A stretch of DNA of 64,000 bases, from the NCBI GenBank assembly GCA_965178125.1, contig OZ237768.1, positions 1 to 64,000 on the forward strand. Direction: 5' to 3'. The stretch's first letter is position 1. Every line of letters starts with the position of its first letter. Shown in pieces: positions 14,074-49,320 of the stretch. Made by a program: the position numbers and the translations under genes. Source of the stretch: Bilabrum cf. latius (lineage: Eukaryota). The notes beneath the pieces are model-generated. The model saw nothing but the letters and a program-made list of their open reading frames with translations, searched no databases and was not told the origin of the DNA.

Positions 14074-14158
14074 TGAGATCCGGAGCCGTTTACTGATTCC
14101 TCAAAAGCATCTGACTACAATTACAAATTTCATCCGGGAGTACTTCCAATCATTGAGG

Positions 14159-17100
14159 TTATCCTCTCCTCGATATTCCCGCGCGCCTCCCAGTCCCGTC
14201 AGCCAGCCGAGCTAGGTCCTTGAAACCCAGCCCGGCTGCATCGTCCCACGGCCGACTCTGAGGACTACCCTGCGGCTTCTGCGGCTCTTGAGGCGCTCGA
14301 CTACTGTCTCCTGGACCACCGCGAGCCACCTCTGCCTGCGCCGCAGCAAGCGCACCGGCTGCCGAGCCTACCCCCTTGCTTGCATCTGCAGCTGCCCGCT
14401 GCTGCGTCTCGAGAAGCATCGCCATCACGCCTTGCGTACTGTTGCGGCGGGCACGAGATCTCGCTCTATCTCGCAGCATCGCATTGGCTTGGCGAGCCCC
14501 TGCATCGTGCCGCATCGACAACGGGATCTGCTTCGCGATGCGGCGCTCCATCACTTCAGGCGACTCCGGCACGTGACCCACAGCCTTGGCAAGTAGCCCC
14601 ATAGCTCGCCCCTAGCTAGGTGTCTCGAACTGCTGGGCATAGGTTCGCTTTGGATCAGCTTCCGCCGGGGTAGGCAGAGTGCTGGTCTCGCCTGCCGCAT
14701 TCGAGGCTCCCGGGACCGTCGGACTTGGAGCACGGCTGCGCTTAGCAGTCTTGTGGGTGCGTTTGGTGGTTCTGCGTGGTAAAGCTCGGGCTGGAGGCCG
14801 CGCTGCTTTGTATGTCTTGCCGATATCGTACCCGAGAACACCACCGGGTTTGTCGAAGCCAGGGAGCGGAATAGCCTTGTCATCCCCATCTGCCTCGATC
14901 ACGCTGATCGTGCTGTAGGCCGCATGAGCTCCAAAACCAGTTTCTAGAGTACAAGATCCGTATGGCTTCGCTCTTGTAGCAGCTTGAAGCACATTTGTCG
15001 CTACAGGGAAACGACCAGCTCGATTGAGACCTGTTCCAGGACTCGCATGGGCATCTGATTCGCGTTTCTTGCCGCGACCGTTCGGAGCGGAGGCCTTGTG
15101 GTCCATGCTAGACTCGGTGGATGCATCTCCACGCTCCTGCATGAGCCGGCGCACTTGTCGATCTTCTCGCGGCCCCTATAGATCGACAAGAATTGACCCG
15201 CTTGACACCGATGAGGGAAGGGAAGCGAACGACTACTACACTCCAACTGACCCAAGTCCAGGTCCTCCAATGGCGTCTGACTCAAGGGGCGCCAGCTTGC
15301 TAGCATTACAAGACTCTGCAAGGCCATCAATGCTAGCAATGGCTGAAGCGGAGCCCTGGCTCGCTTGCCGATGCTATGATCGATGATTGGCCAGTTTAGC
15401 AGCTTGCTTGCGGCCATGGGCCTCGGCCAGCACCTTCGATGCTCGGTCAATTGGTGCAACAAATCGGCTGCGTGGTCTGCCTACCTCCTTGGCAGACTGC
15501 TTCTGCACCCCAGCAACCCAGCCAGCAGCATCAAATGGCTCTTGCTGCAGGGCACGCTATTTCCGACCACTACGACAAACTTTCGACGAGATTCCTCGAC
15601 TCTCCATGTGCTCTTGGCCTGGCGATGATTGCCACCCCAAAGGCATTTTTGCCTTGCCAGGCACGGAATAGCGCACTTGAGCAACAATGTTTGCAATTGG
15701 ATTGCATGAAGCACCTGTAGGGCGCGACACCTCGTCTCTAAGTCTAGGCGTCGCCACGGCGCCTTCCTGTGCTGCACCCAAGCCACTATGATAGTGTGGT
15801 GGTTCCCTCGGCAGGACCGATGCATCCAGTGCAGAGCCAATCGCGTCAGTTGCCAGACTTGCTAACCTGATGCTGCCCCCGTGGCCATCACCATCGTCTG
15901 ACAGAGCATCCCAATCCTCTTCCCCCTCGTCCTGTGAACCGTGCATGGAATCACGCAACTCACGTTGCTGCAGCCAGCTTGAGCTAGTACCTTGGCTCTT
16001 TGCTGTGCTACCACGAGGCAGCGCGGCTGTCGAAAACCCTCGAGATCCGGCAGTGCCACTGATCGGAGTCTGGCGGCCGAGTGCCTCTGGGTCTAGAAGT
16101 ATAGGGCCATCTGTTGTGGCAGATGCGCCTTTCGGAACCATTCCAGCCACCATTCCTGCAAGCGCTCCTAAGCTGCGCTCTACATCACCTCCGAGTTGGG
16201 CAGTTGCATTCTGCACAGCAGCACGCTTGTGCTCACGCGCCCGAGCCATTCGCTCTTCCTTGCTCAGTTCCATTGAGTGCCTCTCAATCGATCGCGTTTG
16301 TGCCTCCTCTCGTCGTTTCGCGATTCGCTTTGCCATGGACATCCCCTTGTTGTCTCCTCGCTTTCGCTGCATTTCACGTACTGGAGCCATGGGGTCCAGG
16401 TTGAACGGTCGACCCTGGCGCACTGCTTGCGATAACTCGTCTGCCAATCGTTGGCGCCTCTCCTTTGAAATCTCCGGGAAAAGGACCCCGCTGCCTTCGT
16501 CTTTCAGGATGCGCTCCCGAACGAGAGCAGCTGCACGCTTCCGAATGCGAAGTCGTTCGCTGCGCACATTGCCGGGCAACTGGTCTCCTGCGTCCTCGAG
16601 CCACGCCTCATACTGCGCAATCGCTCGCATAGCTGCCTATCGTTGATCCTCCATCCGCATCTGTCGTTCATCACGCGTCTCCAAGAACTCGCTCGTCTTG
16701 CCCAGCCGGTCATGCAAGGGTTCAAGCTTGCGACGCTGCGCTCGAATGACTGCTCTGGCTTCTGGCGCAGTGGCAGTTGATGATGCCGACGGCAGCATAT
16801 TCAGGGGCTTCAATGGAGATAAAGGCGAGCTAGGATTTGCGCGGGATAGCAACGCAGATCTGGCAAAGTCAGCCTGCTGGCTGTCCAAACCAAGTCCGTC
16901 GAGTATTGAGACATCCAGCGACGGTGCTCTGGTGCTGGCGGATGACCGAAGCGCACCAGATGAATACATCAAAGCACGCTTGGCAGCAGGCCGTGCTGCC
17001 TGTGCAGGTGCAGAAGTAGCCGAAGTACGATCGCGGTTTGTAGTACTTGGTGCATAATTGTGAGACACGGGCACGCTGACAGCCAATTGCTGGCTGGAAA

Positions 17101-20100
17101 AATGACCGCGACTCCCAGAAGGACCGATGCAAGCCTGTGGCAACGGCTTCGAAGCTGGTGCCACGCTGGTCATGCTAGCAACGCTACTCCGCCTGCCCTT
17201 TGTACCAGTTCGGGACGCAAAGCTTCGGTCACCAGCCACGGGGAGGACGGGCTGCAGCGGATTCGTGTCTAGTGGCCGTCTAGATACAAACATGCGCTCA
17301 AACAATGACGAGGTTGCATCCACCGCTGGATCATCCGCCGCAAGCTTTGAGACCGGCAAGCCTCCAGCACGCAGTCTGGCAGGCGTTCTCTTTCGTTGCA
17401 TTTTCATGGATGGAGTCATCCGCCTGCTCTTGCGAAATGCCTCCTCGGTTCGTTCTTTCACTCGCTTGGGACTGTTCATTTCGGCTTGCTGCCGCTTTCC
17501 CTCTCGACGGGCTCTGTGGAGCTGCTTTATCCAGTCCGGCGAGCCCAACGTTTGCCGAGTAAGAGACTACTGCTTTGGCGGGCGCTTCGAGGCAAACGAA
17601 GGGGCCGCAGTTGCTCGAAGATCAGCTCCGCCATGACCCTTTGCAAGTTTCGGGATTCTAGCTGCGTCACTCTTGCTGATTTGCTCTGATCCAGATTCCG
17701 ACTCGATGATTGCACCGTTTAGCTCTTGCACCAGTCGCCCTACTTCCACATGCAGCGCTGCTGGCAGGAAAGGAAGTCTTTGGCGGAGCTCCTCCATCTC
17801 ACCATCCTCGTCGAACAGGCCAGATAGACCAGTGTCAGTTGCATGGAAGGGCAATTGTTTGCCTGGTCTGGACGAACTTGTGGAGGACTTGGGCGAAACA
17901 CCACTTGTAACCTCCGCCCGACGTGCGGCCTGTTTGCGCCTCTCTCGTTTCTCTTGTTGCACTGCTCTCTTTGCTGCACGGAGCTTGTCCACCAGCGCCT
18001 GCACGGTAGGGTCAATGGTGGTCGATTCTGCACCTCCTCTGGCCATTCTCCACGTCCCCTCCATGATTGCAGCATCCTATGCATTGATGCCGTTCCCTGC
18101 ATTCACGTACACCCACCCGCTTCTGACGCTGCCCGAGTCGCCATCGACCACCATCCGACCGACTTCTGCAAGCCACCTGATTCGATTCACTGGTCTCACT
18201 ACGTCAAACTCTGCACGCCTCGCTCTTGCTTCCTGCGTTTTCTCTGCATCTTGGTCTTGTCCTGCGTCGGACTGAGCTGAGGCCTGGCTCTTGCTGGATA
18301 CAGGCTACCGCCGCCTGGACCGCCTCAAGTTGCACCGTTTTCCCGCATCTGCTCTGCGCATGGATTCTTTGATGGGGACAGCAGGCCGTCTATTTCCGGC
18401 GTGCCTGCCGAGAACCAGCCTCCAGGCGGACTCAGACCTGTGTTTCGCAGCAACAGCCAATCTTCTTGCCAGAAATCCTCTTGCAACGCGCTGAATATCT
18501 ACTGCACTAACCTGCTCCAAAGTGATAAGTTTGGCCGCTAGTTTGCGGCCGCAGTGGCCGCGCCAGAGCGCCTGAAATTGGATGATCGTTCTGCGACACT
18601 TGCGAAACCACTGCATTGCAAGCTGCCGTTGCGACTCGAAACGCGATCGCTTCTCAAGCAGCATAGATAGCCATCTCCCAATGCGACCGCGCGCCCAATC
18701 GCGAGCACGCATCACAGGCCGCACCATTGCACGGATCTTGGCGCCTCGGTATAGCCCTTGAATGCGCGCAGCAGCCATATAGCGACCTTCGGTGTCAACG
18801 GATTGGACCACCTTCTTTCTCCTAACTGTATGCGAGCCCTTGGAACGATGAAGCATGATGACTTGCTCGAAACTTCTTCTGGTTTTCCAGCGCCGTATCG
18901 CACGGGTTAACACCTAATTTGCGCGCTTTCGAAGGGCATGCAGCCTGGTCTTCAAGCTTCTCATAAGCCGGTTGATAGTGGCTGCAGCTCGCCGTCGGCT
19001 ATGAGCCTCATGATGCGCCTTCCTAAGCGCCTGAAAGGACCTGTACCATGCCTGAATGGTACTCGCAGCGAGCGAACGCAAACGGCCAAACGCAAATGTG
19101 TGCAAGTAGGATACTCGCAGCCGATCCCTCCACCCGCGCCAGACGGCTTGAATTTGCGTGGCCGCCTTCTGTCCAAGCACTCGGATAGACCCCGGCTGCT
19201 CCACCCACCTGCGATACAACCTTGCCATAGATGTGCCCTACTACTACCGCTGTTGCTTCATTGCTCTAACGATTGCCGAGGCACGGCTCGCATCGCCGGG
19301 GAGTTGTTTCGCGGCGTCTCCACCTTTGGCACCACCGGGTGAGAGGTCTGCCAAGTCCATAGACCCATCCAAACGAACTACGACCGTGGCCTCCACTGGC
19401 ATTTCCCCTGCGATCGTCCTTCGCTCATCCTCGGCCTGAATGAGACCGGACACCCGCATGACGGCCCTTCCGACGGCTTGATGCAGCAAGTGCTTCATTG
19501 TGGCTGCCAGCTCATGCTCAGCCTGTTCCCGTTCTGCCTGGGCTGCTATTGCAGCCTTGCCTTTGGGGCTATCGTCGGCGTGGACGCGGTGAGCCATGCG
19601 GTCTTTGGAGCTGGAATTAGCCTCTGGGTCAAGCACCTGAAGCAATGAGGCAGGCAGGCTTCGCACTGCTGCTTCTCTGATAGTAACCATTTCGTCCTCT
19701 GCGAGCAGGCGGTCAACACCCAGCTTTAGGCCAAGCCTAATAGCCTCGCGAAATTGGCGCGCTTGCTGCTTTTGCTCCTGTTTTTGCGCAAGATGCACTG
19801 ACTTGCTTCGAGTTCTGTGCCCAGACGGCAGGCTAGGACCACGGACCTCGCTGGCATCCGAGCCTGCCGCGCTTCCCTGTTGGGCTTCTGCTTCACCTGC
19901 CCTTGGCTCCTCGCGAGCAAGCCTCTCTCTTCGAGACCTGAATACTGCTGCCTCCGCGTAATAGGCCTTCGCCCGCTCAGCCGGAGTCATCGACATGGCG
20001 TCGCCTTTTCGGAACTCAGCCCACATGGACTTGACTGACTCCCCCTGCTCAACCTCGTCCTCGCTATCATCCTCTTCGGGCGAAGTGGGCTCAACAGAAG

Positions 20101-21286
20101 CGCTCAGCTGGTTGATACCCCGCATTTGGCCACGTTTCGTGCCAGACCGCGCTATAGCGGCTGGACCCCGCGAAGACACCGCCGATGGCCCGAACGCAGC
20201 CGGCGGTGGGCGCAGCGGGTGTGGCCGGGCACCCCCAGAGCCTCCTATTGAGCGCCTCCATTTGCGGAACTGCTCCTTCCCGTATCGCTGCAGTAGGACC
20301 AGATCAATAGCCCGCTAGCGCTAGAGTGCCCGCCTCCTCTACTGCCGCAGGGAACCGGCGCGTCCCTTGCCGCTGGGCCAGCCGGTCGGGTCCCAGCCAC
20401 TGCCAGTAGCACCGGCAGCCGGCCGGTCCTGTGCATGAACCGCGTCGGCTGGTCGGGTGTCCACCACAATCCGCGCATCAGATCGCCAGTCCCACACTCC
20501 CCTGTGCACCGCCCTTGCCAGCAGCCTGCGCACGTCCATGAGGGTGACCCCGCTCCCTGCCCACAGCGCCCCCAAGTCTCTGGCCAAAAAGTGGCGAGTC
20601 GTGGACGGGTCCATGCTGCGCAAATACGCAGAGGCCCAGGCACTCACTCCACCTTGTGCGCTCGCCAATGCTACAGCTCCTGCAGGCAAGCTGGCCTCGG
20701 CCTGGTTGGAAGCCGCTCCGGTCAACCGCTCGCCGGCGGGCTGCCGCGACGAAGTGCTTGCCGCAACGACCAGCGGTACATCTAAGGTACCCCCAGCTCG
20801 CAGCTCATAGGGATCGAAGTTATCCTACCGATCAGCACGGGCTTGCTCTCTCTTGAGCTGCTGCTTCATCATTGCAGACTGCGTTGCAGTGCCAGACATG
20901 GCGCTTCGACTATCCGTTGCAGTTCCGGGCCTGGAGCCATCACTTCGTTCGACGCTATTTGAGGCCGCTATTCGGCTGCTAGATGCTGCGGAAGCCACAT
21001 CGTATTCTGCCAGAGCCATATTGCCATGCTTGTCATACACCTTCGCTGAGCTTAGCCTCGACGCCGCACGCCCTTGCGCATCGCGCATCTTCGGCTACTT
21101 TGAACCAGAATTTTGTTCTGCTACTTGCTACCTCCCCAAGGCATTCGTTGCCTGCACTGCAAGTGCATTGGACGTACCGGCAAAGTTGGAAACTCCACTA
21201 TCACCGCGGCTGGACGGAATAGAGCCACTCTTCTGAGACTCTGATCCACCTGTGCCTGGCCGAAACTGCGCCGCTCCGATCTCCAT
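14159..21286 (-). CDS. Large IQ-motif (calmodulin-binding) protein, about 2375 aa, about 20 in-frame TAG
   Basis: A single frame from ATG 21286 to TAA 14159 links ten track ORFs through TAG only. IQ motifs: AATQIQAVWRGWRDR, AASTIQAWYRS, AAARIQGLYRGAKIR, IIQFQALWRGHCGR, AVDIQRVARGFLAR. Three consecutive TAGs at 19238-19246. Confidence 0.85.
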
Positions 21287-21571: not shown

Positions 21572-24500
21572 ATGCAGAATGGAGTCGATGGGTAAGAGAC
21601 TCCAATTGAAACTAGCTTGCACTCCCTGCCAGCCCAACTTGCCATACAAGTTTAGATTCCTTTAATTGATGCCCAGGACAAGTTCAAATTTGTTACATTT
21701 CGCAGCATTGCTGGAGTCGCCGAGCTTCGCGCTACAGACGTCGGTAGGGAGGAGGCTGTAAAGACGGACACGAGTGGGATCCATCCAGATGAATTCATAG
21801 ACATCGCGAGTGATGGACGGCTCAGTGAAGTTGAGATCCAACTTGAGCACGGTAATGCGTCTGATAAGTCTGCTGCAAAGACCGAGATGCATACGGAGTT
21901 CCAGGGGCCGCCCAGCGGAATGGTATTGAGCAGCGCCAGAACTGCTCTTCCAGACCTAGAGAGGCACACTGTATCGGCTAAAAGTCATACTATTCGATCC
22001 AATTAGGCAGCATGGCAGCTTGATGGTATTAGTGGAGGTGATGTTGGCAGTCGTGCCCGTGGGCACGGCGAGTCTGGAGACTCGCCCGTCACCAAGCAGC
22101 CTGAGTGTGGCCAAGCCCCTGATGGTGATCGAGAGCTTACCTCAGATGATTGCAGTCGCGATCTCAGTGCATCAATGCTCCCTGCCTCCTCCAAGCTGCT
22201 ATCACCTTAGAGCCCGCCCAGGCCATACAGCAGGAAGGGTCATGCCAGCCACGCGGCAAGTGCCGGGCCCGTTTCGCGAGCCCACGCGCCCCAGCAGCAT
22301 TCCTTGGCACGGGATGGTATGCATGGCCTGGATTCTACGCTGTCCATGTGTGACGAATCCCAAATGCAACCCACAGCACGCAGGCAAGGCAAGGCCGACG
22401 ATGCAGACCAATCCACTGGGGGCTGTCCGCCCGGCACCTCCTCGGCATCAGCTTCTGCAGCGCTCGAGAGACCCCATGCGCAAGTTTCTCACAGGCATGG
22501 GGGGCAACCATAGAGCATATTAGTCCGGGGTGTCGAGGAGGGGCAGCTGGGTGGGCTCGGTGGGCTTAGAAAGACCCGAGGGGCGTTCAGTGCAACTGGC
22601 TCCGTGGCCAGCGTAGAGCCAGGCTCGCTTCCTAGTCACCCCGCCAAACCAACAGCACGTGTATCACCGCGGGGTACTGCTGGAGCCTTTAGCGATGCTG
22701 GCTCTCAGTCCAACACTGATCGGCTCGATTTCGATGCATGGAGCAAGGACAGGGACGAGTCGCCGTCTCAGTCCATTGAAGGGCGGGAGTATGCAGCAGC
22801 TGGAGACCAGTATGTTCCTAGACAACGCCCCCCAGCACGCGATGGAGTAGACGGGGCGAAGGGGCCGTGTTCGACCGGCAATTCCAGTTCTGATGCGTCC
22901 ATCGCGGTAGACCTGTCTGTGCGTCAACCAGCGTTCGTTTGGGACAGGCCGTTGAGTAAACGTCAAGCACCTCCGAGCGGGCCGGCTGGCCAACTTGATG
23001 CGGTAAACTAGCATGCCGATGCGGATGACGGCCGGGGATCGTTGTCTATTCTTCATCCCCCCCCTTCTCGTACTATGTCCGAGGGCCTCCGGCCGAACTC
23101 ACAGGGACTCAGCAGCTCTCGAGGTCGTGACCGCCTGCGCCAAAGGGGTGCAAGGCTTCCAGGAGACGACACCAGCGGTGGATCTAGTGGTAATATCCGC
23201 CCTACCGTGTCGGTTTCTCATACTCTGGTCAGGCCGCGAGGGCACCGGCGGCTGAGTAGCGATGCGATTGCGTGGTCGCACCGGGAAGCTGGGTTGCAGG
23301 CAATCGATTCTCGAGGTGGCAGATGGTCGGAACACTAGCTGCAGTTCAGCTCCCACGGGAGCGCCCATTCTCTATCTGAGCTAGCGATGGAGACGTCAAC
23401 TGGTCTTGGTGTCCCTCTGGTCGTGCGAAAAGGGTCACACGTCGGTCGGTATCGAGAAAAGGAGCCCAAGACGACGAGGGGTGGCAGCGGCAAGAAATAC
23501 AAGCGATCAAAACGATCGCGCAACCCTGTTCGCGCAGATCGTGGAGCTGCACCATTACAACCGATTTCATCTTCTTCGAGTATCCAAGGGCCGTCACCAC
23601 TAGGCCACCTGCAGCACGACCGTCACTCGCGCCCTGACTCTCGCAGCAGTGCCCCAGATCAAGGCGAACTCCGTAGTCCAGGCCAGTCAGGCAGCCAAGT
23701 GAGCTATGCAGCGCAGGATGTGACCGATGGGGGCCGCGTACGGCGCCGTAGCGTAGATGCCATCTTGGGCAAGCGTGGAGTGCTGCGTATGGAAGTTGCA
23801 GCTGCTACGGGGGCACGCCACATGGGCAGAGTGACCACATTGAACGGTTCTTCCAACACATCCAGCTCGTCGGCTGTGTCAGATGTCAGGGCTTCAGCAG
23901 ATCGGCAAGCCAAGCCTCGTCTGGCCCTTGGGGATGTCCACGACAGTCGTGCCAACTCGGTTGGAAGAGGGTCTGTGAAGTCGGCATTTTCCCGCTCAAT
24001 TCGGAAGACCTCTCCGAAAAATAGCCACGTGCGATCATCGGCGTCTGCATCCGGCAAGGACTCTAGCAGTGAGTCGTTCTCAGCGAAGTCCTCCAGCAAC
24101 GCTCAGCTTGATTCACCTCGCTGTATGCTTGCGAAAGACTCGAAGGGTCATCAACGCTACCAAAACAGCAGGGTGATTGCGTCCCCGAGAGCTGATCAGA
24201 TGCTGCATAGCCCGCGATCTGCGAGATCAAAGTCTCCTGCTGACCCAGATCTCGCACCAGGCAGAAAGCAGGAGCAGTGCGGTGCATCACCGGTGAGCAG
24301 CCCCAGTGCCGAGGCACGGAGCTTAGGTGCGCCTTCGCAACCGGCTGACCAGCCAAATTTGCCAGACAATGGACACGCTCCAAGCTCTATATCAAATCAA
24401 AGCACCAGCTAGCCTGATGCAGGGATTCCTTAGATCGGAATCGGTGGTAGGCAGCATTCTAGCATGGCGCCCGGCGCGGCGCAAGTTCCAGCAAGCGGGC

Positions 24501-30500: not shown

Positions 30501-32029
30501 AGCCAGAACACGGACGGTTGTGGGCTGCACTCTGCCAAGCATCGTGCCTCGCAGATTGCTCCTCAAAGAAGGGTGGTGCAATGTCGTCTGTACCATTGGA
30601 CAAATTGCTTGCCGAGGCCGTTAGAAGTGCTCCGAGATCTGGAGAAGTATGGGTAGAGGTCGCACGGTATCACTTAAACCCTTGTTCTGGGGCCTACAGC
30701 ACACGGCTTGCCCGTCGTGCCCTACAGTTTGCCCGTGAGTTGACGGGATAGTACGGAGATGCGTATGTTGAGAGCCTGCGACTGCACATGCTCTGCGTTG
30801 TCGGGTTCGCTTCACAAGATGACCCCATGGGGTTGGCGAGCGCAAGGGAGCTACCTGAGGAGCTCGGACTAGACCTCGCAGGTAGGCTATGCCTCGAAGC
30901 AGCACATCGACTCGTGATGATAGACTCCTCCTCAAGCATACAACAACTGGGAACAGCGAGGCAACGAGATGGCAGTCACGTGGCGCATGCATCTGTGCAT
31001 GAAACTAGCTTCAGGCTGCGGTCAGAGTCCGCCAGTGCACGCCTGCGAAGCTAGTTGAGGCACCTCTAGTAGGATGCTTTGGAATAGCCATGGGCCGTTT
31101 CGTGCCAGTCGAACTACGGTCTCATGTTCTCTGTCTGTAGGCCACTGCGGAGTAGCAGTCCAAAGGTAGTGTTGGCAGCAACCTGGGAGGTACTATCGAC
31201 CGAGTTGGCAGCCATGGCCGCTGTGTATGCGTTCGCAGCTGGTGCAGACGTGAGTGCTGCGTGTTCAAGGCTGCAGCAGGAGTTTCACGACCCTGATGCC
31301 AGCGTGGACATATCAGAGTAGCATGCATTTGAGCTGGTGCGCGGCTCTCAGCAGGACACAGTACCGCCGGGCAGCCCCACACGGAAAAGGTCAGCGACCT
31401 TGCAGTCGCTGTGCCAGGGCACACTACAGCCTGGTGATTTCGTATTGGGACTGTCCCGGCCATCAAGGCTGCTTCGAAGTGGAGCGCTCGCAGCTGCAAT
31501 GCAGCGGGAGAGGCAAACGGAGGCTGGACCCAGAGAAACGTGCAGGATGGTACTCTTCAAGCCAGATGAGTTGAGGCGTAGGGACCACAGTTTACGGGTC
31601 ACTAGCGCAGTAGCAATTAGCAGTAGTCTAGCAGCGCAGGCAGACCAGGTCGTCTTTCACGTCCCCACTGGGGACAGTTGCGTCGATGTTGAGCATGCAT
31701 CTCTACACCGAGGCAGTGCACCGCGTTCGCCGGAACTGGCTTCCACGACCAGAATGACGCCAGGTATCGACACAGGCGCAACCCAGGGCCGCCATGAGTC
31801 TGTCAGCCAGACTCCACTGGTGCACCATGCTGATGAAAATAGCTAGCTGCCTCCCGAGGACAAGATTGCACCGGCATCGCAAGACAACTCCGGCCTCGGC
31901 GCAGCCCGGTCGCAAGTACAGATTTCTGGATAGCCACAGCCGCCAAGTGGGGCGGCACCGAAACGAAAGGGGCGAAGGCGGCGCCGCAGAAGGAAGAAAG
32001 CACAGCAGGAAGGTGGTGCTGGGACTTGA
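21572..32029 (+). CDS. Very large (about 3460 aa) low-complexity protein with a Q/H-rich tract and C-terminal TPR/HAT-like helical repeats; about 45 in-frame TAG
   Basis: Sixteen track ORFs (22304 to 31846) share one frame and are separated only by TAG. The frame is open from about 21600 to TGA 32027-32029. The 5' end is uncertain (ATG 21572 or 21579, with a likely GTAAG donor at 21592). HAT/TPR-like segments: AIKRYPGSPSVWQSW, QPEHGRLWAAL, AVRSAPRSGEVWVEVARYHLNP, LTG*YGDAYVE. Confidence 0.8.
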
Positions 32030-40600: not shown

Positions 40601-43600
40601 GCAGATGCACAGGTTGCATGTGGGACGCAGCCAGCACAGGCTATCAGGATCGGGAAGTGGCCCGTTGGATAGAAGTGTTGCTGCAGCTAGTAGCAACGAG
40701 CCTCTGGGGACGAAGTCGCCAGAACTGACTAGAGCTGGGGAGGCCAGCCATCCCGGGAGCACTGGCGTGACGGCGTCTGGCTCCCTGCCGATGTCGAGGC
40801 AGCTTGGGGGGCGGCGGGACGGGCATCAACAACCTTCATTTCATGACTTGGTGCCCAGAGCCGCAGGGTAGGCGGAGCGAAGGCGCAGCAGTGCGATGCA
40901 ATCTTAGCTTCTTGCAGCTGCCGTGCAGCACGTGGCACTGCCTGAGTCATGGCGCGTTCGGCCTATGTGCACGCAGAGAGCCATCCGTTTGGCCGAGTTC
41001 GTGCGGGGAATTCTGCTTGCAGCAAGTGACGCGGAAGACGGGGAGGCACCCACGGCGGCTCAGCACGTGGCAGCAGTGCTGGCGACAGCCCAAGTTGAGC
41101 GGGAAGAGGACAGGCAGGCTCGCGGGAGGGTACTCAGAGCCCGCCTCCGCAGGTAGGGCAGAGCCGCTGCACCCGAGGAAGTGGAAGCCGTGCTGCGGCA
41201 AGAGGAAGAAAAGGAGGCAGAGGCGGCTGGAGCAGTTGCAGGTGTGCAAGCCAAGTACACAAGTGTAGCTGACATGCTGAAAACGGTAGAAGCTGCAAAG
41301 AGGCGGACGAACGCCGCGCGAGCGTTGTTGATGAAGGGTGAGCTCGACTCGGACGACAGCGACCTAGCTGGCCCCGTGCTGACCAGTCACACATAGGCCG
41401 CCAACACAGTAGCTGACTACATGCCCTGGCTACAGACAGTTGCAGCTGCGGTCCTATACCCCCGCTTGCGCCGTGCACTCCGCCGGGCCCTCCGGTGGAC
41501 TCCTCCTCAGGTCAGTAGCTGCCCACCGGAAGTAATTGAGCTGTTCCAAGGCATGGAAGCAACTCATGCAGCGCTCAAAGGCGCGCCCCTGCCGCCGTCA
41601 GCCGGCGGACTGGTTCGATTGGACGCCACATTTTCTCCTTACCTGACTGGACTTATTGCCTCTCGTTCCGAGCGGAGCGTCACGTCAGTGGTGCCCACGC
41701 TGCTCCTAAAGGAGGAGGGTCGAATCGCGCCGGCTGGAGAACAACAAGGTGCGCTATACTCCTCAGCAGCCTATGCACTGTTCCGGTAGAGCGTTGCAGA
41801 GCTAGAGAGCTTTAAGAATTTGCCGCGTGGAGTGAGAGGCAACGCGGTAGTAAGGTTTGCATCCGATGTGATGGTAGAGCCGGTGCGACGGTTTGCTCAT
41901 GCTCATGCGCATCGGGCGGCCGAAGTTCTCGCAGTTGCTCATGCGTATGCTCGAAGCGATGGAAAGGACCCCCCGAGGTCTTAGATTGCAGAGCTGGGTC
42001 CGTTTGGATGCGCCGCGGAGGAGCTGCGCGCCAAGTACCCGGCAGCTGCAGCTAGGGCGGACAGCCGCAGGGCTGATTAGATCAGAGGCGAACGGGAGCT
42101 GGCCCGCCGGGCTGGGACACCCCTTCCTGTGGATCCCATGGAGCCAGACGCAAAGGGAAGGAAGGGGTGGGACCCGATGCGACTCGGCGAGCACGTGCAC
42201 CACTTCTTTGCAGATGCGAGTCGGTTGGGGGGCAAGGTCGGGAAAGCCGCTGGGGCGGAGAGGCGATCGCATGCCGAGGCACAGCGCGCCCTGCAGCGGG
42301 TGGCCGTGCATCTCAACAACGCGTACTATTGCCGGTAGTAGCTGTACTCTCTGCTGGGGGCTCTGCAGCAACTTGATGTGGTGGACCTGAAAGCAGTCAT
42401 GGTGCGGCCCACCGAGGCGGTTGATACCCGCGACATAGCACAGGATGACGCCGAGCTGAAGGCACAGGAGGCGGGTGACTCTGATGATGAGCCCACCGCC
42501 TATGGCACAGACGAGGGCGGGCAAGCAGGGGGTGCCAGCGCGAGGGCGCGCGATTCCAAAGGCACGTCTCAGACCGCGGCCGATGCTCTGAGTCCGGGTC
42601 CTACTCGCGCCAGGGACGATCTGATCGCCGGCGTGTAGAAGGCACGAGGTGATGTAGAGACCAGCGATACTGTGAGTGGGGCTGAGGCGTAGGTTAGGTC
42701 CGAGCAGGCCCGTGGCATCGAGGCTGCTGCTTTGGCGGCCTCAGACCAGAGAGCCGTGCGAGAGGTCGCTCAGATCATGGACGTCGGGGCCGTCCCACTC
42801 GAGCCACAGCCAGAGCCGGAGCTGCCTCCGCGAGGTGCAGCCTCGGGAGCGGGCCATGACCGCGGCCTGGAAGTCGTATCTGGCTCCCTGGAGGTGCTGG
42901 ATGCGAGGATCGAGGAAGCCACGCGTGCCTTGGAGGGGGGCTCTCTTGAAATCGCGGCGCTGCCGGTGAGCGCTGCCATCGGCGCCAAGTTGGAGGAAGC
43001 GGAGTAGGGACAGATTGGAGCAGGGGACGAAACGCCAGGGACGTTTGGAACCGAGGATGGTGATGGAAACAGCTCTGGCTTGGGAAGCGAGATCGGTAGC
43101 GTGCAGAGCGCGACGAGAGCGGAGCGACAAGTTCTGCGAGAGCTGGAGCTGCTATCGGTCGACGTGAGCATTCAACGAGGGGTGAACCTCGCGCAGATGG
43201 ACCGCTGGAGTGCCTCTAACGTGTTCGTGGTATCGCACGTAGCTGCGTCTCGGCGGGAGCTGCAGGCGCTGCTGACGCATCATGAGACCACAAACACGCA
43301 GCGACCCGAGTCTCAGGCCAGCCCCATCCTCAATCATAGCTTCAGCACGGCGGTGCCCTCAAACAGGGCATGGCTGCGGCTGGAGGCCTACGACTGGGAC
43401 GAGAGCAGCCTGCAGCCGAACAGGTTCGGTGTTTCCCCGGACGATGACTTTATTGGTTCGGTGACAGTGCCTCTGCGCGTGCTGGCAGGGGCTGGGCCGC
43501 ACCGCTTCAGGGCGCACGTGCGTCGTCCAGGTGGTCCCCAGGCGTGGGGTGTGCAGGATGGACTCATGGTGCCAGAGACCGACCTAGTGCGGGAGGCAGT

Positions 43601-44684
43601 GGGCGGTGCCGATCGCCCCGGGGGCGCAGACGGCAGGTCCATGCGCTCTGTAGACGTGAAGGATTGGATGTCGGTCGCCAAGCGCGTGGCGAGAGAGGCC
43701 CCTGACAGGATAGGGGGCATCATGGCCGCCCTCACGCCCGCTCAGAGGCAGGTTCTGGATGTAGTAGCCGGCTCCAAGGCAGACCTGCTGAGGGCAGCAG
43801 CTGCAGCGGACGCCCGCAGATCTGCATGGATGGCTGGACTCGCCGCTCCCACTGCGCGCCGCGGTGCCAGCGGCGATGGCAAGCCTCTACAGACCTACGG
43901 AGCCCTCGAGTTCCAGGTGGAAGTGCAGAGGGAGCCGCTGGGGGAGCATGCGGTGGACGGGGTCGGCGTGGAGCTGAAGAAAGCCATGCTGCAGGTGGCC
44001 CGAAGCGTGCACAACTCAGTGCGCGAGAAGCTGGAGGAGACTGTGTGCGGGGCCAAGGCAGACGCGAGCCCCAAGGAGCTGCTGCTGCGGGCGATTCCGC
44101 TCATCGTGCACTACAGGGACCGCATCCCCGTCTTGCTGCAGCACCTGCAGCCCGCACTGCGGCTGCACTTGCTTCGGCTGCTGTGGCGGGCTCTTGTGAT
44201 TGAGCTGACAAACCTGCTGTTGCCCACGCTCTGCTGGGACGAGCCTGTGACGCTGCCGACGGCCAAAGCGCCACCCCGCGGAGTGCGGGCGACCTTGCAC
44301 TCGAGTGGTGCCCTCTTCTGGTACAGTGAGAGCAAAGAGACCCAGTGGCTGGCGCCGCATGAAGTGAACCTGCTGTCCGGGCTGCTCTCTCACTTGAGCC
44401 AGGTCTTCGAGCGACTGGGCCTGCTGCACCGGGTGCTGAGGAGAGAGGCAAGGCCGATTGTAAAGCTGTTGCAGCTGTGGGTGATGCCCAATGAGGCGCT
44501 AGTCAAGAAAGCTACCCAATTCTTCATCAAAGCGAGGCAGGCCAGCAAGCCTCTTGACGGATGGAGGCACCCCTTCCACGAGCTGGGGTTCCCGCATGTG
44601 CGGGCTGTGCTGGCCTCTAGGGCCGAGCAGTCAGGTGATGCTGACGCAGCCGATCTTATCGAGACGATAGACTCGTATGAGTGA
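34616..44684 (+). CDS. Munc13/MUN-like protein with C2 domain(s), about 3310 aa, about 29 in-frame TAG
   Basis: ATG 34616, phase-0 intron 34748-34880 (GTGAG...AAGCAG), then a 9.8-kb single frame to TGA 44684 broken only by TAG. C2 domain: VDVSIQRGVNLAQMDRWSASNVFV...LRLEAYDWD...DDFIGSVTVPL. MUN/MHD-like segments: LYSSAAYALFR*, VHLNNAYYCR**L, LLRLLWRALVIELTNLLLP. The family call is from recall. Confidence 0.75.
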
Positions 44685-44807: not shown

Positions 44808-46334
44808 ATGGCGTCTCAGCCGTGGCAAGCTGTTTCCGCTTAGCAGGTCATTGGAATATTGCACCGATTGCGTGATGGAGCGAGTGATGTATCTCTTGTT
44901 GACTCCGCTGTCGACCAAATCGCGTGAGTTCTCCAGGTTGGCCACGTGTACGGTTGACCCTTTGTTGCAGGATCTTTGGGGGGCCCGGGACTTGATGGGA
45001 ACTGATTTGGCAAGAGTTTCAATATTCATCGCAGGGCCGCGTTTGGTATCGAGGCAGGCAGTATCGAGGCAGCTGCTGGTGATACTGCTGTTGTGTCGTT
45101 GAAGGATCTGAAAGAAGTGAAGGGTGTCGAAGACGACCCAAAATTTAAGCTGTTCCTGGAAAAAGCAACTGAGAGAGGGTACTTTGGGGGGCATGCCGTC
45201 GGGTCACCGGAGCATGCACGCAAAAGAGCTCAACTTGAGGTGAAGTATAGGGAGCGATTCGGCCTACCAGTTGCTGATAGTCTGCGCCAAGCTGCCGCAG
45301 CTGAAGAGCAGAAACCAGCAGTAGCTGCTGGAGCTAAAGAAGCTGCCGTGGGTGGTGGTAGTGGTGGAAACCCGGGGGGCGAGCGATTCGAGCCATCCAC
45401 CGAGGCGGCTGCACAGGCCGAGGCTGCCAAAGCAGAGGGCACTGCAGCTCTCAAGGCAAAGGACTACGATGCGGCGGCCCGGGGGTACGGCAAGGCTGTT
45501 ATTGCCCTGTGTCCTCCTAGCGAGGCTCCCAGCGATCCTATGGACGAGGTGAGCGAGGCCCTCGCCGGCAAGCTGCCCAAAGCCGCTGCGGTGATGCTGT
45601 GCAATCGGTGCGCCGCGCAGCAGCGCAGGAACGACCTCGTTTCGGCGGAGGCAGACGCGCGCGCTGCAGTCGCCTGTGACGGCGGTTGGTTCAAGACACA
45701 CCTGCGGCTCGGCGAGGTGCTCAAGTCCCTGGGCCAGGTGGAGGAGGCGAGGGTCTCGTTGCAAAAGTGCCTGGAGATCGAGCCGGGGCAGAAGTCGGCG
45801 GAGAGGCTGCTTGGGGCCATCGACAGGGCGTCAGCGGGAGTGGGCCTTGGGGGAGATAGCGCGCTAGCGGGAGGGGGCATGCCCGGTGGGATGCCAGGTG
45901 GGATGCCCGGTGGGATGCCTCCGGGAATGCCCCCGGGAATGCCTCCGGGATTGGCTGGCATGATGTCCAACCCGGCGATGCAGCAGGCGGCCGCGCAGAT
46001 GATGCAGAACCCTGCCATGCAGCAGATGGCCCAGAACTTGATGTCTGACCCAGCCGCCATGAGTCGAATAAGCCAGATGATGGGCGGAGGGGCCATGCCC
46101 GATTTCGCGCAGCAGGCCGCCTCGGCTGGCGCTGACCAGTCTGGCTTGCTGGAGCGCATGCGGGGCAACCCTGCGGTGCAGGAGATGATGGAGGACCCAG
46201 AGGTGCGCGAGGCGGTGGAAAAAGCCAGGGCTGAAGGCCCTGCCGGTATGGCCGCGCTGATGACCTCGCAAGTGGGACAGCGTCTGATGGCTGCCATGTC
46301 TGGTGCAGCCATGCAGGCGGGTGGTGCTTCGTGA
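44808..46334 (+). CDS. SGT/SGTA-like co-chaperone (N-terminal dimerisation domain, TPR, STI1/DP repeats), about 471 aa, 1 in-frame TAG
   Basis: Exon 1 44808-44923 (MASQPWQAVSA*QVIGILHRL...SAVDQI), phase-2 intron 44924-45034, then AAFGIE, together resembling the SGTA N-domain. TPR: AEAAKAEGTAALKAKDYDAAARGYGKA...NRCAAQ...WFKTHLRLG. GGMP repeats and STI1 motifs MMSNPAMQQ, MMQNPAMQQMAQ, MMEDPEVRE. Ends TGA. Confidence 0.85.
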
Positions 46335-46518: not shown

Positions 46519-49320
46519 TTATGGGTGAATAATGTCATTCCACACCTCTACCACCACGTGCACTTCGTTGCCCCCGTCGTGCACCACCTGCAATCCCCTC
46601 GGCTCCCCTGGCATGAGGGTCACATAGTTGTCGCTCCAGTACGAGACCAAGTCCGGCTCCCCATCTCCCACCTGCTCCTCGCCATCACTACCACTAGCTG
46701 GGCCCGGACGAAGCCTGAGCCGCACGAAGAATGCGAGCACACGGGGGCTCGTGTTCTGCACCTGCACGTCCGAGATGCACCGGCCCAGAGCCTGGATCCC
46801 TTGCTGCTGCACGGCAAGCCCGCTGCCGGTAGGTTGGCACTTGGTCGAGGTGATGCTGGCGTGCAGCGAGTTTTTCACGGAAGGCATGCGCTGCAGGGCC
46901 GAGAAGTCAGCCAACACCGAGCAGTTGCACCTGTAGAAGTTGCACTGCTCGAAGTCCACTTGGTCCTGCTGTTCCCCTAGCCAGTAGTGGTTCACAGCCA
47001 CAGGGTTACCGAGCTGGGATGCCCGCCGCAGCTCCAGCCGCAGAAAAGTGACCCCACCCGAGCTGATTGCAGCACGACTTACCTCTTCCTGGGGGATCAT
47101 CAGCACGTCCACCACTCCATCAGCTGGCACGGACCCTCCAGTCAGGTTGCGGTCTAGCCTCCAGTGCGCGTGCCCGTCGGGACCGAGCAGCAGGGCCATA
47201 ACAAAGAGCGGGTCGCTCGAGTTGCCGCTCGGCTCGTACATTGAATTCACAACTCGCACTTGACCGCTGACCGGGTCGTACTGCGGGTGGAGCGGCTCCA
47301 AAGCCCGCTGGACCCCAAAGTATGCCCCGCCAGTGTTGAGGTACTGGTCGTACAGGTGCCAGATGTGCTGCGGGAGGGCGTTATTCAACATCCACTGGAT
47401 TACCCCAGTGGCATTCCTGTACTTGAACGCGCCGTACGACTCGAACATCGCCCGGTGGCTCTCGTAGGCAGCCGCCTGCGACCGCAGGAGGAACCCCGGC
47501 GCGTCTTCTGCCTTGCCGTACCTCTGCTCCAGGGGCCCCAGGAAGAACCGGAGGCTGCGGAACAGACCGTGCTGGTTGCCGCAGTGGAAGTCCCACACCT
47601 CGGAGGAGGCCCCCTCCGCCCCCCACAGCTGGTCAGCGGGCACAGTCCTGGCCCAGCTCTCGAGGGCCATGGGGCTGGCACCCGGGCTAATCTCAGTCGA
47701 GAACCCCGACGCTCCCCCGAGGGGCCCAAAGGACCGCGGATCCGTCCAGTAGCTCGGGGGTACCCACGCGTATGGGCCATTCATCTTCACCCCCGACGGA
47801 CCAGAGAGAGGCGAGTCCACAGCGGAGGCAGCCGGCAGCGTGGGCAGATCCCAAGCCGCCTCGAGGGCCTGCCGCGCATACGCCGCCTCCACCTCCTCGG
47901 GGGGCAGTTCGTCGCTCGAGAGCAAAAAGGCCAGGGAGCTGGGGTGCTGCCGGAACCGCAGCAGCTGGGCTCGCACGCTTGCATTGGCCACTGCCCTCTG
48001 CTCGGCCCCCCACAGCTTCCAGTTCTGCCAAGCATCGCAGCAGCACAGCCCAGGGAGGGCCAGCAGCCCCCACTGGTCCATGCGCTGATATAGGTCCTCG
48101 TCCTCGAACTTCCCCTCGAACCGAATGGCGTTGAGCCCCAGGGCCCGCACGTGCCTCAGCTGGGCCTCATTGCGCTCTGGGTCGTGTCTCTGCAGCAGGT
48201 CCGGTGCCCAGCCCCCACCGCGCACCAGGAGAGGCCGGCCGTTCACACGGAAGAGGCGGCCCCCACCGTGATCATCCAGTTCCGAGCTTGCCTCCCGCAG
48301 ACCCACCATAGCTGATGCGCTGAATGCAGCCTGCTGCTGGTGGTCGGCCCGGAACGCAACTGTCAGGTTGTGCAGCGGCTGTGCACCCATCTGCCACGGC
48401 CACCACAGCAGGCCCCGCGCCGATGCATCTCGCATAGCAAGCCCATCGCACTGCTTTGCACCCACCGTCACGACCAACCTCCCATAGGCCCGCCCCTCTG
48501 GCCCTGCCCCTGGCGCAATGCCGCCCGCGGGAGCCCCTTTCACTAGCACTGCTCCGACAGTGCAGTGCACGTCTTCTCCCAAGGTTATCGTAATGCTGCC
48601 GTTGATGGGAGCATTGTGGAAGTTTCTTAGCTCTGCGGATACAGTGATGTCCGCAACGTCATTTGTGGCGTTGAAATTGGTGCTCGCGGCGGGGTGGCGC
48701 ACCGCCACTGGAGCTCCGGGGTCCAGTGGATCCAGCTCCACGGCACGCCACAGGCCGGCATTCCCATCGGGTGGGTCAACGGACCAATCTACAACGTCAA
48801 TCGCGAGGTCTGTTGCATTTCTAGTCCAAAAGACATCGTGTGGCCGCTGCACGAGAACGGCAACGCACGACTGGCCTAGGCCTAGACCAGAGCCCCGACT
48901 TCCAGCGAATTCGAAGTCCCGAAAGGTTCCAACAACACTGCGGTTATCAGCCACATGAGCTCCGTCTATCCATACATCAGCACGATAGTTAATTCCAAGG
49001 AAACGCAGCGTGTATGCGCTTGCAGGCGCATCGAAGCAGCTGCGCCACCAGAATGCAGGATCAAAAGCTGCTGAATCGACCTAGAGCAACGTCGTGTTGT
49101 AGTACAAGTTCGTTGGCACGATTCTATTTTCCCTAAGTACCTCTAGCGCAGTTGAGGGTACTGTGGCATTCCACCACGATGAATCATCGAACGACAGCAA
49201 GGATATTGTCGCTCCAGACCCTATCACGGAGTCAGATGACGCTACTTTCCACGATGTCAGTCGATATGCACTCACTATTGCATCAAATGCCAGCGAAATC
49301 GCGATAATTCGTCGCAACAT
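46519..49320 (-). CDS. Secreted GH2 exo-beta-D-glucosaminidase (CsxA-like), about 933 aa, 1 in-frame TAG
   Basis: Signal peptide MLRRIIAISLAFDAIVSA from ATG 49320. TAG at 49081 joins the N-terminal ORF to FLGINYRADVWIDG and the 811-aa ORF. Motifs: LWWPWQMGAQPLH, NGRPLLVRGGGW, GLNAIRFEGK, CCCDAW, FLLSSDE (acid/base Asp), GVKMNGPYAWVPP, FSTEISPG (nucleophile Glu), TGVIQWMLN. Ends TAA. Confidence 0.92.

What the first reader, a model, noticed from the sequence alone, without database searches (positions are those of the whole stretch)
14159..46521. UAA remains a stop, so UAG and UAA are decoupled
The 13 genes end in TGA (11) or TAA (2: the IQ protein at 14159 and GH2 at 46519), never TAG, and no TAA is needed internally. 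Established knowledge: most nuclear stop reassignments change UAA and UAG together (translation table 6; ciliates, diplomonads, some ulvophytes). UAG-only reassignment is known from few lineages, for example Iotanema spirale (Gln), a rhizarian (Leu) and some phyllopharyngean ciliates. A GC-rich genome with TTAGGG telomeres and 90-180 nt introns does not obviously fit those lineages, so this may be an independent origin. The Ala/Gly/Ser-rich protein style reminds me of bicosoecid stramenopiles, which is only an impression.
Basis: partly seen in the sequence, partly recalled or inferred. Interest (0 to 1): 0.88.

Follow-up and report, generated by a model that had tools for sequence, protein, structure and literature searches.

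The report
UAG means glutamine, UAA still stops
This chromosome end belongs to a GC-rich microbial eukaryote that reads the stop codon UAG as glutamine while keeping UAA and UGA as stops, a rare split of two codons that nearly always change meaning together.

Summary
Read with TAG as sense, the window gives 13 genes: 11 end in TGA, 2 in TAA. Eleven stop-to-stop ORFs (16,297 codons) hold 124 in-frame TAG, 0 TAA and 0 TGA. About 57 TAA would be expected if TAA were used like CAA.

TAG most likely encodes Gln. In DNA of an environmental relative about 60% identical in protein, 6 of our 14 aligned TAG sites are CAG or CAA and 1 is TAG. Ordinary Gln codons are conserved at a similar rate. Gln beats every other residue by about 9 log-likelihood units. 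The relative's coding frames hold 8 TAG, 0 TAA and 0 TGA.

TAA works as a terminator. The GH2 gene ends at TAA exactly where 120 homologues end. The second TAA (IQ gene) is followed two codons later by TGA, so it decides nothing. Transcript-like contigs carry the TAGs unchanged.

The mechanism, tRNA-Gln(CUA) plus an altered eRF1, is inferred only: no genome, tRNA or eRF1 was available.

The code variant is known (NCBI table 15 type: Iotanema, Protocruzia, some phyllopharyngean ciliates). The lineage looks different: TTAGGG telomere, about 60% GC, and a GH2 that groups with Cafeteria. My reading: a new member of a known kind, probably an independent origin.

The parts
1..1388 (.). Telomere, (CCCTAA)n, about 232 units, so the window starts at a chromosome end. 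Five copies of a 54-bp subtelomeric repeat follow at 1388-1658.
1803..4449 (-). Hypothetical gene made of two overlapping ORFs (2725-4449 and 1803-3041) with no Pfam match. The exon join is not resolved. The last stop is TGA at 1803-1805. The upstream ORF ends TAG..TAA..TAA, which may be intronic.
4687..10161 (-). EF-hand protein ORF, 1824 codons. It has 14 in-frame TAG (13 after the first ATG) and ends in TGA.
10656..14073 (+). ODAD1-like coiled-coil gene: two overlapping ORFs, so probably one intron between 11812 and 12206, not mapped. It ends TGA TGA. Transcript-like contigs of three runs stop at 14111-14119.
14159..21286 (-). IQ-motif protein gene, 2375 codons, 20 in-frame TAG. One 7195-nt transcript-like contig (14152-21346) covers it with no differences and no splice.
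14150..14161 (-). End of the IQ gene: TAA CCT CAA TGA. The TAA named in the finding has a TGA two codons downstream, so this end does not discriminate between TAA as stop and TAA as sense.
21572..32029 (+). Giant gene with no Pfam match. The ATG is at 21572 and a 114-nt GT..AG intron lies at 21592-21705. There are 45 in-frame TAG after the intron, several inside a poly-Gln tract. It ends in TGA.
32203..34161 (-). Ala-Pro-repeat protein with a weak WH2 motif. 5 TAG in the ORF. It ends in TGA.
34854..44684 (+). C2-domain protein ORF, 3276 codons, 29 in-frame TAG, ending in TGA. This is the gene used for the comparison with relatives.
40326..42638 (+). TAG codons of the C2 gene whose partners in relatives are Gln codons or TAG: codons 1825, 1916, 2006, 2018, 2181, 2312, 2409, 2495, 2496 and 2595.
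45006..46334 (+). SGT-like TPR/STI1 protein: last exon ORF, 0 TAG, ending in TGA.
46519..49320 (-). GH2 exo-beta-D-glucosaminidase-like gene, 933 codons from the ATG, with one TAG at 49081-49083. It ends in TAA at 46519-46521. If TAA were read through, the next TGA is 34 codons on.
49381..52524 (+). DHHC palmitoyltransferase ORF, 6 TAG, ending in TGA.
52676..54013 (-). zf-C2HC protein ORF, 3 TAG. One of them lies two codons before the terminal TGA.
54209..56914 (+). Alpha/beta-hydrolase ORF, 4 TAG, ending in TGA.
57096..60273 (-). AP-1 gamma adaptin gene with a 178-nt GT..AG intron at 59147-59324. 0 TAG. It ends in TGA.

Best explanation
The organism reads its nuclear genes with a UAG-only variant code. 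UAG is an ordinary sense codon for glutamine, making up about 15% of Gln codons in this window, while UAA and UGA remain the only terminators.

Shown here: UAG lies inside long, transcribed ORFs that are conserved in relatives. It pairs with CAG, CAA or TAG in those relatives. UAA and UGA are absent from coding interiors. UAA ends at least one gene at a conserved C-terminus. Environmental relatives share the same pattern.

Inferred from what is known of such codes, and not tested here: decoding is by a tRNA-Gln with anticodon CUA. Its C34 pairs only with G, so it reads UAG and leaves UAA alone. This would go together with an eRF1 whose N-domain no longer recognises a G in the third position but still recognises UAA and UGA.
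For: 1. ORF lengths. The longest ORF is 853 codons under the standard code, 3477 with TAG as sense and 869 with TAA alone as sense.

2. Codon counts. 11 ORFs (16,297 codons) hold 124 TAG, 0 TAA and 0 TGA. Composition predicts 185, 92 and 93. With CAA making up 32% of CAG plus CAA, about 57 TAA would be expected for 124 TAG, and the probability of seeing none is about 10^-20.

3. ORFs bounded by TGA only. TAA occurs only upstream of the ATG or at the 3' end.

4. Relatives as protein. A search with 1200 residues of the C2 gene gave 9 hits, 8 of them short fragments 63-96% identical. With five further members of their clusters (P0262 adds no TAG site or end at one), our TAG sites face Q at 6 sites (codons 1825, 2181, 2312, 2409, 2495, 2496), K at 1, and N or E at 1. 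Fragments end exactly one residue before our TAG at 5 sites: 1686, 2101, 2312, 2495 and 2595. A 34%-identical homologue also has QQ at 2495-2496.

5. Relatives as DNA. The coding frames of L001 and L002 hold 8 TAG, 0 TAA and 0 TGA in 1089 codons. Our 14 aligned TAG sites face CAG 4 times, CAA 2 and TAG 1, and AAC, AAT, TCC, GAG, ACA, AGA and GAC once each. That is 7 of 14 kept as Q or TAG, against 14 of 34 for ordinary Gln codons.

6. Likelihood. Over 22 aligned pairs, using BLOSUM62, Gln is best; Lys, Arg and Glu are about 9 log units worse.

7. TAA as a stop. Of 120 GH2 homologues, 83 run 0-4 residues and 108 run fewer than 10 residues past our last residue. The Pfam Ig_GlcNase match reaches position 104 of 105 at residue 971 of 976.

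8. Expression. Contigs of run X5 follow gene borders: depth is 63.5, 21.6 and 5-12 over three genes. One contig lacks the 114-nt GT..AG intron that DNA run X1 keeps. All contigs match the window with 0 other letters, so the TAGs are in the RNA-like contigs.
Against: Only one TAA terminator (GH2) is independently supported. The other has a TGA two codons on.

The sample is 13 genes from one subtelomeric window plus 1089 codons of a relative. Rare sense use of UAA elsewhere in the genome cannot be excluded.

At the relative's own 5 aligned TAG sites our sequence has AAG twice, AGG, CAT and GTA, and never Gln. Taken alone, that subset favours Lys or Arg.

The single TAG in a well-conserved protein (GH2) falls in a variable column: S 65, K 14, Q 9 among the 120 homologues.

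The tool labels the runs 'RNA?' and X5 'probably DNA', so expression rests on depth steps and one spliced contig.

No tRNA gene, eRF1 or rRNA was available, so the mechanism is untested.
Confidence: 0.85

Rival explanations
1. The code is the ordinary 'ciliate-type' code (NCBI table 6), with both UAA and UAG read as Gln. On this view TAA is missing from this window only because the genome is GC-rich.
For: The genome is about 60% GC. TAA is the rarest of the three stop triplets in the window: 193 on the + strand against 510 TAG and 784 TGA. Most known UAG reassignments also involve UAA (PMC5304391 abstract).
Against: CAA is not rare: 226 against 488 CAG in the same ORFs, so about 57 TAA would be expected and 0 are seen. 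Out-of-frame TAA is common in the same DNA, 110 in the two other frames. The GH2 gene stops at TAA exactly at the family's C-terminus. The relative also has 0 TAA in 1089 coding codons.
Confidence: 0.02
2. The code is ambiguous and depends on position. UAG would be Gln inside genes but would also terminate near mRNA 3' ends, as in Condylostoma or karyorelict ciliates.
For: 3' UTRs look very short: contigs stop 7 nt after the IQ gene's TAA and 38-46 nt after the ODAD1 gene's TGA. Two ORFs have a TAG 2-4 codons before their terminal TGA or TAA, the zf-C2HC gene and ORF 2725-4449.
Against: None of the 13 genes lacks a TGA or TAA terminator. The three proteins whose C-terminal parts match known families (GH2, AP-1 gamma, SGT-like) end at TAA or TGA, not at TAG. 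Contigs cannot prove transcript ends (tool note).
Confidence: 0.07
3. UAG is a sense codon for a residue other than Gln, for example Lys, Glu, Leu or Ser, as in other UAG-only codes.
For: Our sequence has K twice, R, H and V at the relative's own 5 TAG sites. Non-Gln partners (N, S, T, D, R, E, K) occur at about half of our TAG sites.
Against: Gln is the commonest partner, 9 of 22 pairs, and is about 9 log-likelihood units ahead of Lys, Arg and Glu. A QQ pair is kept even in a 34%-identical homologue. TAG codons sit inside a CAG/CAA poly-Gln tract.
Confidence: 0.04
4. The apparent code change is an artefact. The TAG-bearing ORFs would be pseudogenes or assembly errors, or the TAGs would be removed by splicing or RNA editing.
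For: The TAG-richest genes are poorly conserved, low-complexity and subtelomeric.
Against: Frames of 1824-3477 codons free of TAA and TGA cannot arise by chance; 92 and 93 are expected across the 11 ORFs. Contigs of four runs match the window with no differences, and one contig spans the whole IQ gene unspliced. Two independent metagenome contigs of a relative keep the same frames open except at TAG.
Confidence: 0.01

Closest known systems
UAG-to-Gln nuclear codes with UAA kept as a stop (NCBI table 15 type): the fornicate Iotanema spirale, the ciliate Protocruzia tuzeti, and two phyllopharyngean ciliate lineages
   Same: The codon meanings are the same: UAG is Gln, UAA and UGA are stops. Table 15 reads the window's genes open. 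Literature basis: passages of PMC11687900 and PMC5304391.
   Different: The genome type differs: a TTAGGG telomere on a chromosome of at least 64 kb, about 60% GC, and introns of 114-178 nt. Its GH2 groups with the stramenopile Cafeteria. That ciliate telomeres are G4T2 or G4T4 and Giardia's is TAGGG is my recollection, not a call. Cognate tRNA and eRF1 changes, such as T32G in Iotanema, could not be compared.
UAA+UAG-to-Gln codes (NCBI table 6): many ciliates, diplomonads, oxymonads, some ulvophytes, and Amoeboaphelidium protococcarum as reported
   Same: A stop codon is reassigned to Gln, and TAG codons arise next to CAG and CAA.
   Different: Here TAA is never in frame, 0 of 16,297 codons plus 0 of 1089 in the relative, and it terminates GH2. 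Passages of PMC6299283 and PMC5304391 describe A. protococcarum as using both TAG and TAA. I did not see the primary paper (Karpov 2013).
Other UAG-only reassignments: rhizarian exLh (Leu), Scotinosphaera (Ser), and some phyllopharyngeans (Leu)
   Same: UAG changes meaning while UAA stays a stop (passages).
   Different: The residue differs. Here Gln is favoured.
Ambiguous stop/sense codes (Condylostoma, Parduczia, karyorelicts, Blastocrithidia)
   Same: In-frame standard stop codons, and apparently very short 3' UTRs.
   Different: Only one codon is affected here, and dedicated terminators (UGA, UAA) remain. No gene was seen to end at UAG.

Membership tests
UAG-only Gln nuclear code (table 15 type) | UAG occurs frequently in frame inside real coding sequences | tested here: met
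   124 TAG in 16,297 codons of 11 ORFs, and ORFs reach 3477 codons. The relative has 8 TAG in 1089 codons. Transcript-like contigs keep the TAGs.
UAG-only Gln nuclear code (table 15 type) | UAG positions correspond to Gln in homologues | tested here: met
   9 of 22 aligned pairs are Gln. Gln is best by about 9 log-likelihood units. TAG sites are kept as Q or TAG at 7 of 14, against 14 of 34 for ordinary Gln.
UAG-only Gln nuclear code (table 15 type) | UAA is absent from coding interiors and is used as a terminator | tested here: met
   0 TAA in 16,297 codons and 0 in 1089. The GH2 gene ends at TAA where 108 of 120 homologues end within 10 residues. The second TAA end is not decisive.
UAG-only Gln nuclear code (table 15 type) | UGA remains a stop | tested here: met
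   0 in-frame TGA, and 11 of 13 genes end in TGA.
UAG-only Gln nuclear code (table 15 type) | A tRNA-Gln(CUA) is present and no tRNA(UUA) | not testable with these tools
   No tRNA gene in the window and no whole genome held.
UAG-only Gln nuclear code (table 15 type) | The eRF1 N-domain is altered (GTS, NIKS, YxCxxxF regions) | not testable with these tools
   eRF1 is not in the window and no genome is held.
UAR-to-Gln code (table 6) | UAA also occurs in frame at Gln positions | tested here: not met
   0 observed against about 57 expected. In TGA-bounded ORFs, TAA occurs only at the ends.
Ambiguous stop/sense code | The reassigned codon also terminates genes near their 3' ends | tested here: inconclusive
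   No gene needs TAG as its terminator. Two ORFs have a TAG 2-4 codons before the terminal TGA or TAA. Transcript ends are known only from contigs.
Ciliophora (the lineage holding most known UAG-only codes) | G4T2 or G4T4-type telomeres (recalled, not from a call) | tested here: not met
   The telomere is (TTAGGG)n, about 232 units, on a contig of at least 64 kb.
Bicosoecid or bigyran stramenopiles (organism placement) | Marker genes group with the clade | tested here: inconclusive
   One gene only. GH2 forms a 7-row clade with 4 Cafeteria rows and 2 unnamed rows, SH-aLRT 100, in a quick tree of 51 rows. The best AP-1 gamma hits are unnamed at 45% identity. No 18S is available.

The most novel reading that the evidence does not exclude
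This is a further, independent origin of the UAG-to-Gln, UAA-stays-stop code, outside ciliates and metamonads. It lies in a GC-rich flagellate lineage, possibly a relative of bicosoecid stramenopiles. The lineage includes at least one environmental relative only about 60% identical in protein, so the change is old enough for TAG to have reached near-neutral frequency in fast-evolving genes. Because the organism has a telomere-level assembly and RNA-like data, it could serve as a workable model for how eRF1 and a CUA suppressor separate UAG from UAA.
Probability: 0.55. Interest if true: 0.8.

Novelty: new member of a known kind. Interest (0 to 1): 0.72.

Why it matters
UAA and UAG almost always change meaning together. 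Passages of PMC5304391 and PMC11687900 discuss why, including the role of the single eukaryotic release factor, eRF1, which recognises all three stop codons. That a tRNA with U at the wobble position reads both codons is my own knowledge, not taken from those passages. Each independent lineage that splits the two codons is a natural experiment on how eRF1 can lose recognition of G at the third position while keeping UAA and UGA.

A case in a GC-rich genome outside the ciliates would show that the split does not depend on ciliate biology or on AT pressure.

There is also a practical consequence. Gene callers using the standard code shatter this organism's genes. The public protein collection holds its relatives' genes only as 69-254-residue fragments that break at TAG. 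The assembly and related metagenome bins therefore need table 15 for annotation.

Tried and rejected
- Whole-genome route (tRNA-Gln(CUA), eRF1, 18S): no genome is held. The window has no tRNA and no Rfam match.

- Strain polymorphism test (TAG against CAG between runs): all laid contigs were identical to the window, so there was nothing to compare. No listed holder is on record as RNA. The RNA nature of X5-X7 is my inference.

- Loose ends of contigs: none of the four is found anywhere in the window. I set them aside as chimeric or foreign.

- TAG in the conserved GH2: the column is variable (S 65, K 14, Q 9 and others), and the solved CsxA structure has N there with Q one residue before. Not informative.

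- Neighbour-context test for the residue: TAG is enriched near TAG (4.8% against 0.76%) and only slightly near Gln. The profile likelihood did not discriminate. The base after TAG looks like that after sense codons.

- Taxonomy. The AP-1 gamma searches gave only unnamed best hits (45%) and a scattered set of named ones, including fungi, Thecamonas and plants. The Atlas gave no useful taxa. Cluster look-ups named only Cafeteria, two choanoflagellates, Copromyxa, Phalansterium and Prasinococcus. The careful GH2 tree did not finish in time, so only the quick tree is reported.

- Aphelid hypothesis (Amoeboaphelidium): considered because of the fungal-looking AP-1 gamma hits and the reported UAR-to-Gln code. 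There is no sequence support, and GH2 groups with Cafeteria. The 2022 aphelid genome paper was not in the listings I scanned, and I did not read it.

The single protein P0251 was used instead.

- Literature: eight searches found no report of a UAG-only nuclear code in a stramenopile or other GC-rich non-ciliate. The library lacks most subscription journals, and supplements were not seen, so this is weak evidence that nothing is in print.

Full report
**What the window is.** The window starts with about 232 CCCTAA units (1-1388), followed by five copies of a 54-bp repeat. It is therefore the end of a eukaryotic chromosome with TTAGGG telomeres. GC content is 56-68%. There is no tRNA gene and no Rfam match. 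Everything below rests on this window and on related sequences found with it.

**Checking the observation.** Under the standard code the longest ORF outside the telomere is 853 codons. With TAG read as sense it is 3477, followed by 3276, 2375 and 1824. With TAA alone read as sense it is only 869.

Eleven stop-to-stop ORFs with coding character total 16,297 codons. They hold 124 TAG, 0 TAA and 0 TGA. Position-specific base composition predicts 185, 92 and 93, and the two other frames of the same DNA hold 110 TAA, 301 TAG and 630 TGA. About 120 of the 124 TAG lie after the first ATG.

Pfam names most of the genes: EF-hand, IQ, C2, GH2 exo-glucosaminidase-like, DHHC, alpha/beta-hydrolase, AP-1 gamma adaptin, SGT-like TPR/STI1, ODAD1-like, zf-C2HC and a weak WH2.

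I count 13 genes, of which 11 end in TGA and 2 in TAA, at 14159 and 46519.

**Is UAA really not a sense codon?** ORFs drawn with TAA as a stop cannot contain TAA, so I also used ORFs bounded by TGA only. In these, TAA appears only at the extreme 5' end, before the ATG, or at the extreme 3' end. Examples are codons 92-117 of 3594 in the giant gene, codons 3-79 and 2455 of 2457 in the IQ gene, and codon 977 of 1010 in GH2. The 3276-codon C2 ORF and the 1824-codon EF-hand ORF contain none.

GC bias does not explain this. CAA makes up 32% of CAG plus CAA in the same ORFs, so a synonymous TAA would be expected about 57 times for 124 TAG. The probability of seeing none is about 10^-20. Even at a tenfold lower usage it would be 0.02.

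**Does UAA terminate?** The GH2 gene ends ...VEVWNDIIHP-TAA. If TAA were read through, the next TGA is 34 codons on. I aligned 120 homologues. Of these, 83 have 0-4 residues and 108 have fewer than 10 residues beyond our last residue, including Cafeteria (...VQTWNAQLAA). The Pfam Ig_GlcNase domain reaches position 104 of 105 five residues before the TAA. So this TAA is a true terminator.

The IQ gene's TAA is followed by CCT CAA TGA. That end is compatible with either reading and adds nothing.

**What does UAG encode?** In the giant gene, TAG codons are interleaved with CAG and CAA in a poly-Gln tract.

The decisive evidence comes from relatives. A full HMMER scan with codons 1600-2799 of the C2 gene found 9 proteins. 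Eight are fragments of 69-254 residues at 63-96% identity, which is what a standard-code gene caller makes of a gene full of TAG. Five further members of their clusters were also aligned (one of them, P0262, adds no TAG site or end at one).

Fragments end exactly one residue before our TAG at five sites: codons 1686, 2101, 2312, 2495 and 2595. Where a fragment runs across one of our TAG sites it has Q at 1825, 2181, 2312, 2409, 2495 and 2496, K at 1616, and N or E at 2377. A 34%-identical homologue of 919 residues also has QQ at 2495-2496.

Two metagenome contigs of the roughly 60%-identical relative were fetched, L001 and L002. Their coding frames hold 8 TAG, 0 TAA and 0 TGA in 1089 codons, while the other frames are full of TGA and TAA. 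Codon by codon, our 14 aligned TAG sites face CAG 4 times, CAA 2 and TAG 1, and AAC, AAT, TCC, GAG, ACA, AGA and GAC once each. That is 7 of 14 kept as Gln or TAG, against 14 of 34 for ordinary Gln codons in the same alignment.

Results against this reading: the relative's own five aligned TAG sites face AAG twice, AGG, CAT and GTA in our sequence, and never Gln. Even so, a BLOSUM62 likelihood over all 22 pairs puts Gln first, with Lys, Arg and Glu about 9 log units behind. The one TAG in GH2 lies in a variable column and is uninformative. A neighbour-context test did not discriminate.

**Expression.** Four public runs were laid on 12000-31999. X1 holds the stretch in one piece and may be the source DNA. 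X5, X6 and X7 are labelled 'RNA?', and X5 'probably DNA'.

In X5 the contigs follow gene borders. One contig runs to 14119 at depth 63.5. One 7195-nt contig is exactly 14152-21346 at depth 21.6, covering the whole IQ gene with its 20 TAG. Fragmented contigs at depth 5-12 cover the giant gene. One contig joins 21590 to 21705 across a GT..AG gap of 114 nt that X1 retains.

I read this as RNA-derived contigs. All contigs match the window with no differences, so neither editing nor splicing removes the TAGs. The spliced contig also fixes the giant gene's start at the ATG at 21572, with an intron at 21592-21705. Contig ends 7 nt after the IQ TAA and 38-46 nt after the ODAD1 TGA hint at very short 3' UTRs, but contigs cannot prove transcript ends.

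**Mechanism.** What is shown is the pattern of codon use: UAG as Gln-like sense, and UAA and UGA as stops. The mechanism is inferred from established knowledge. A tRNA-Gln with anticodon CUA reads UAG only, whereas a UUA anticodon would also read UAA. eRF1 must stop recognising UAG while keeping UAA and UGA. Passages of PMC5304391 describe such candidate changes: T32G in the GTS motif of Iotanema, and an alanine at the position of human Leu69 in rhizarian exLh. None of this could be tested here.

TAG makes up 17% of Gln codons in the four giant, poorly conserved genes (109 of 626). In the six ORFs with conserved domains it makes up 6% (11 of 178). The Fisher test gives p = 1e-4. This fits either weaker decoding of UAG or slow accumulation of the codon. 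In the giant gene TAG is near its neutral expectation, 46 observed against 42 expected. Only 1 of 14 sites is TAG in both species. The change therefore predates the split from the 60% relative, and TAG sites turn over quickly.

**Comparison with what is known.** Passages of PMC11687900 list UAG-to-Gln with UAA kept as a stop in Iotanema spirale, Protocruzia tuzeti and two phyllopharyngean lineages. They list UAG-to-Leu in rhizarian exLh and some phyllopharyngeans, and UAG-to-Ser in Scotinosphaera. NCBI table 15 gives the same reading as used here. The code variant itself is therefore known.

Amoeboaphelidium protococcarum is described in passages I read as using both TAG and TAA.

The organism here has TTAGGG telomeres and about 60% GC. 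Its closest AP-1 gamma relatives are unnamed: a fragment at 77% and 66% identity in an ENA assembly, then hits at 45%. The best named GH2 homologue is Cafeteria roenbergensis/burkhardae. In a quick maximum-likelihood tree of 51 rows, the window's GH2 forms a clade with four Cafeteria rows and two unnamed rows, with SH-aLRT 100. This is one gene, of a kind prone to transfer, so the placement is only a lead.

Eight literature searches found no report of such a code in stramenopiles or other GC-rich non-ciliates. The library is incomplete and supplements were closed.

**Verdict.** UAG is decoupled from UAA and most likely encodes Gln. The code is a known variant in what appears to be a new lineage. 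Independence of origin and the mechanism remain to be shown with the whole assembly.

Noticed in passing
window 61969-64000: A tandem array of an 82-bp unit with at least 24 copies at 97-98% matches runs off the window end. Because 82 is not a multiple of 3, all three minus-strand frames stay open for about 700 codons, which mimics a gene.
   Followed up: partly
window 1388-1658: Five copies of a 54-bp subtelomeric repeat lie directly next to the telomere. The telomere tract has one irregular unit near position 70.
   Followed up: no
window 14111-14152: The convergent ODAD1-like and IQ genes have transcript-like contig ends only about 33 nt apart. The implied 3' UTRs are about 7 and 38-46 nt. 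Several genes have tandem or back-up stops (TGA TGA; TAA..TGA; TGA ctg TAA).
   Followed up: partly
window 4687-60273 (all genes): TAG makes up 6% of Gln codons in the six ORFs with conserved domains (none in AP-1 gamma or the SGT-like gene). In the four giant low-complexity genes it makes up 17% (Fisher p = 1e-4). TAG codons also cluster with each other: 4.8% of the neighbours of a TAG are TAG, against a background of 0.76%.
   Followed up: partly
window 46519-49320: The GH2 exo-beta-D-glucosaminidase-like gene forms a well-supported clade with Cafeteria and two unnamed sequences, apart from choanoflagellate, amoebozoan and acidobacterial homologues. This may reflect shared ancestry or an old gene transfer.
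   Followed up: partly
window 32780-33222: A hexamer repeat encodes a long (Ala-Pro)n tract in a protein that has a weak WH2 motif near its C-terminus.
   Followed up: no
window 1803-4449: Two overlapping minus-strand ORFs without any Pfam match probably form one gene with an unmapped intron. The upstream ORF ends TAG..TAA..TAA.
   Followed up: no
L001 and L002 (whole contigs): Two metagenome records hold near-identical DNA (98% in protein over the overlap) of a relative about 60% identical to the window's C2 gene. The clade therefore occurs in at least two environmental data sets. Public protein collections hold its genes only as fragments that break at TAG.
   Followed up: partly
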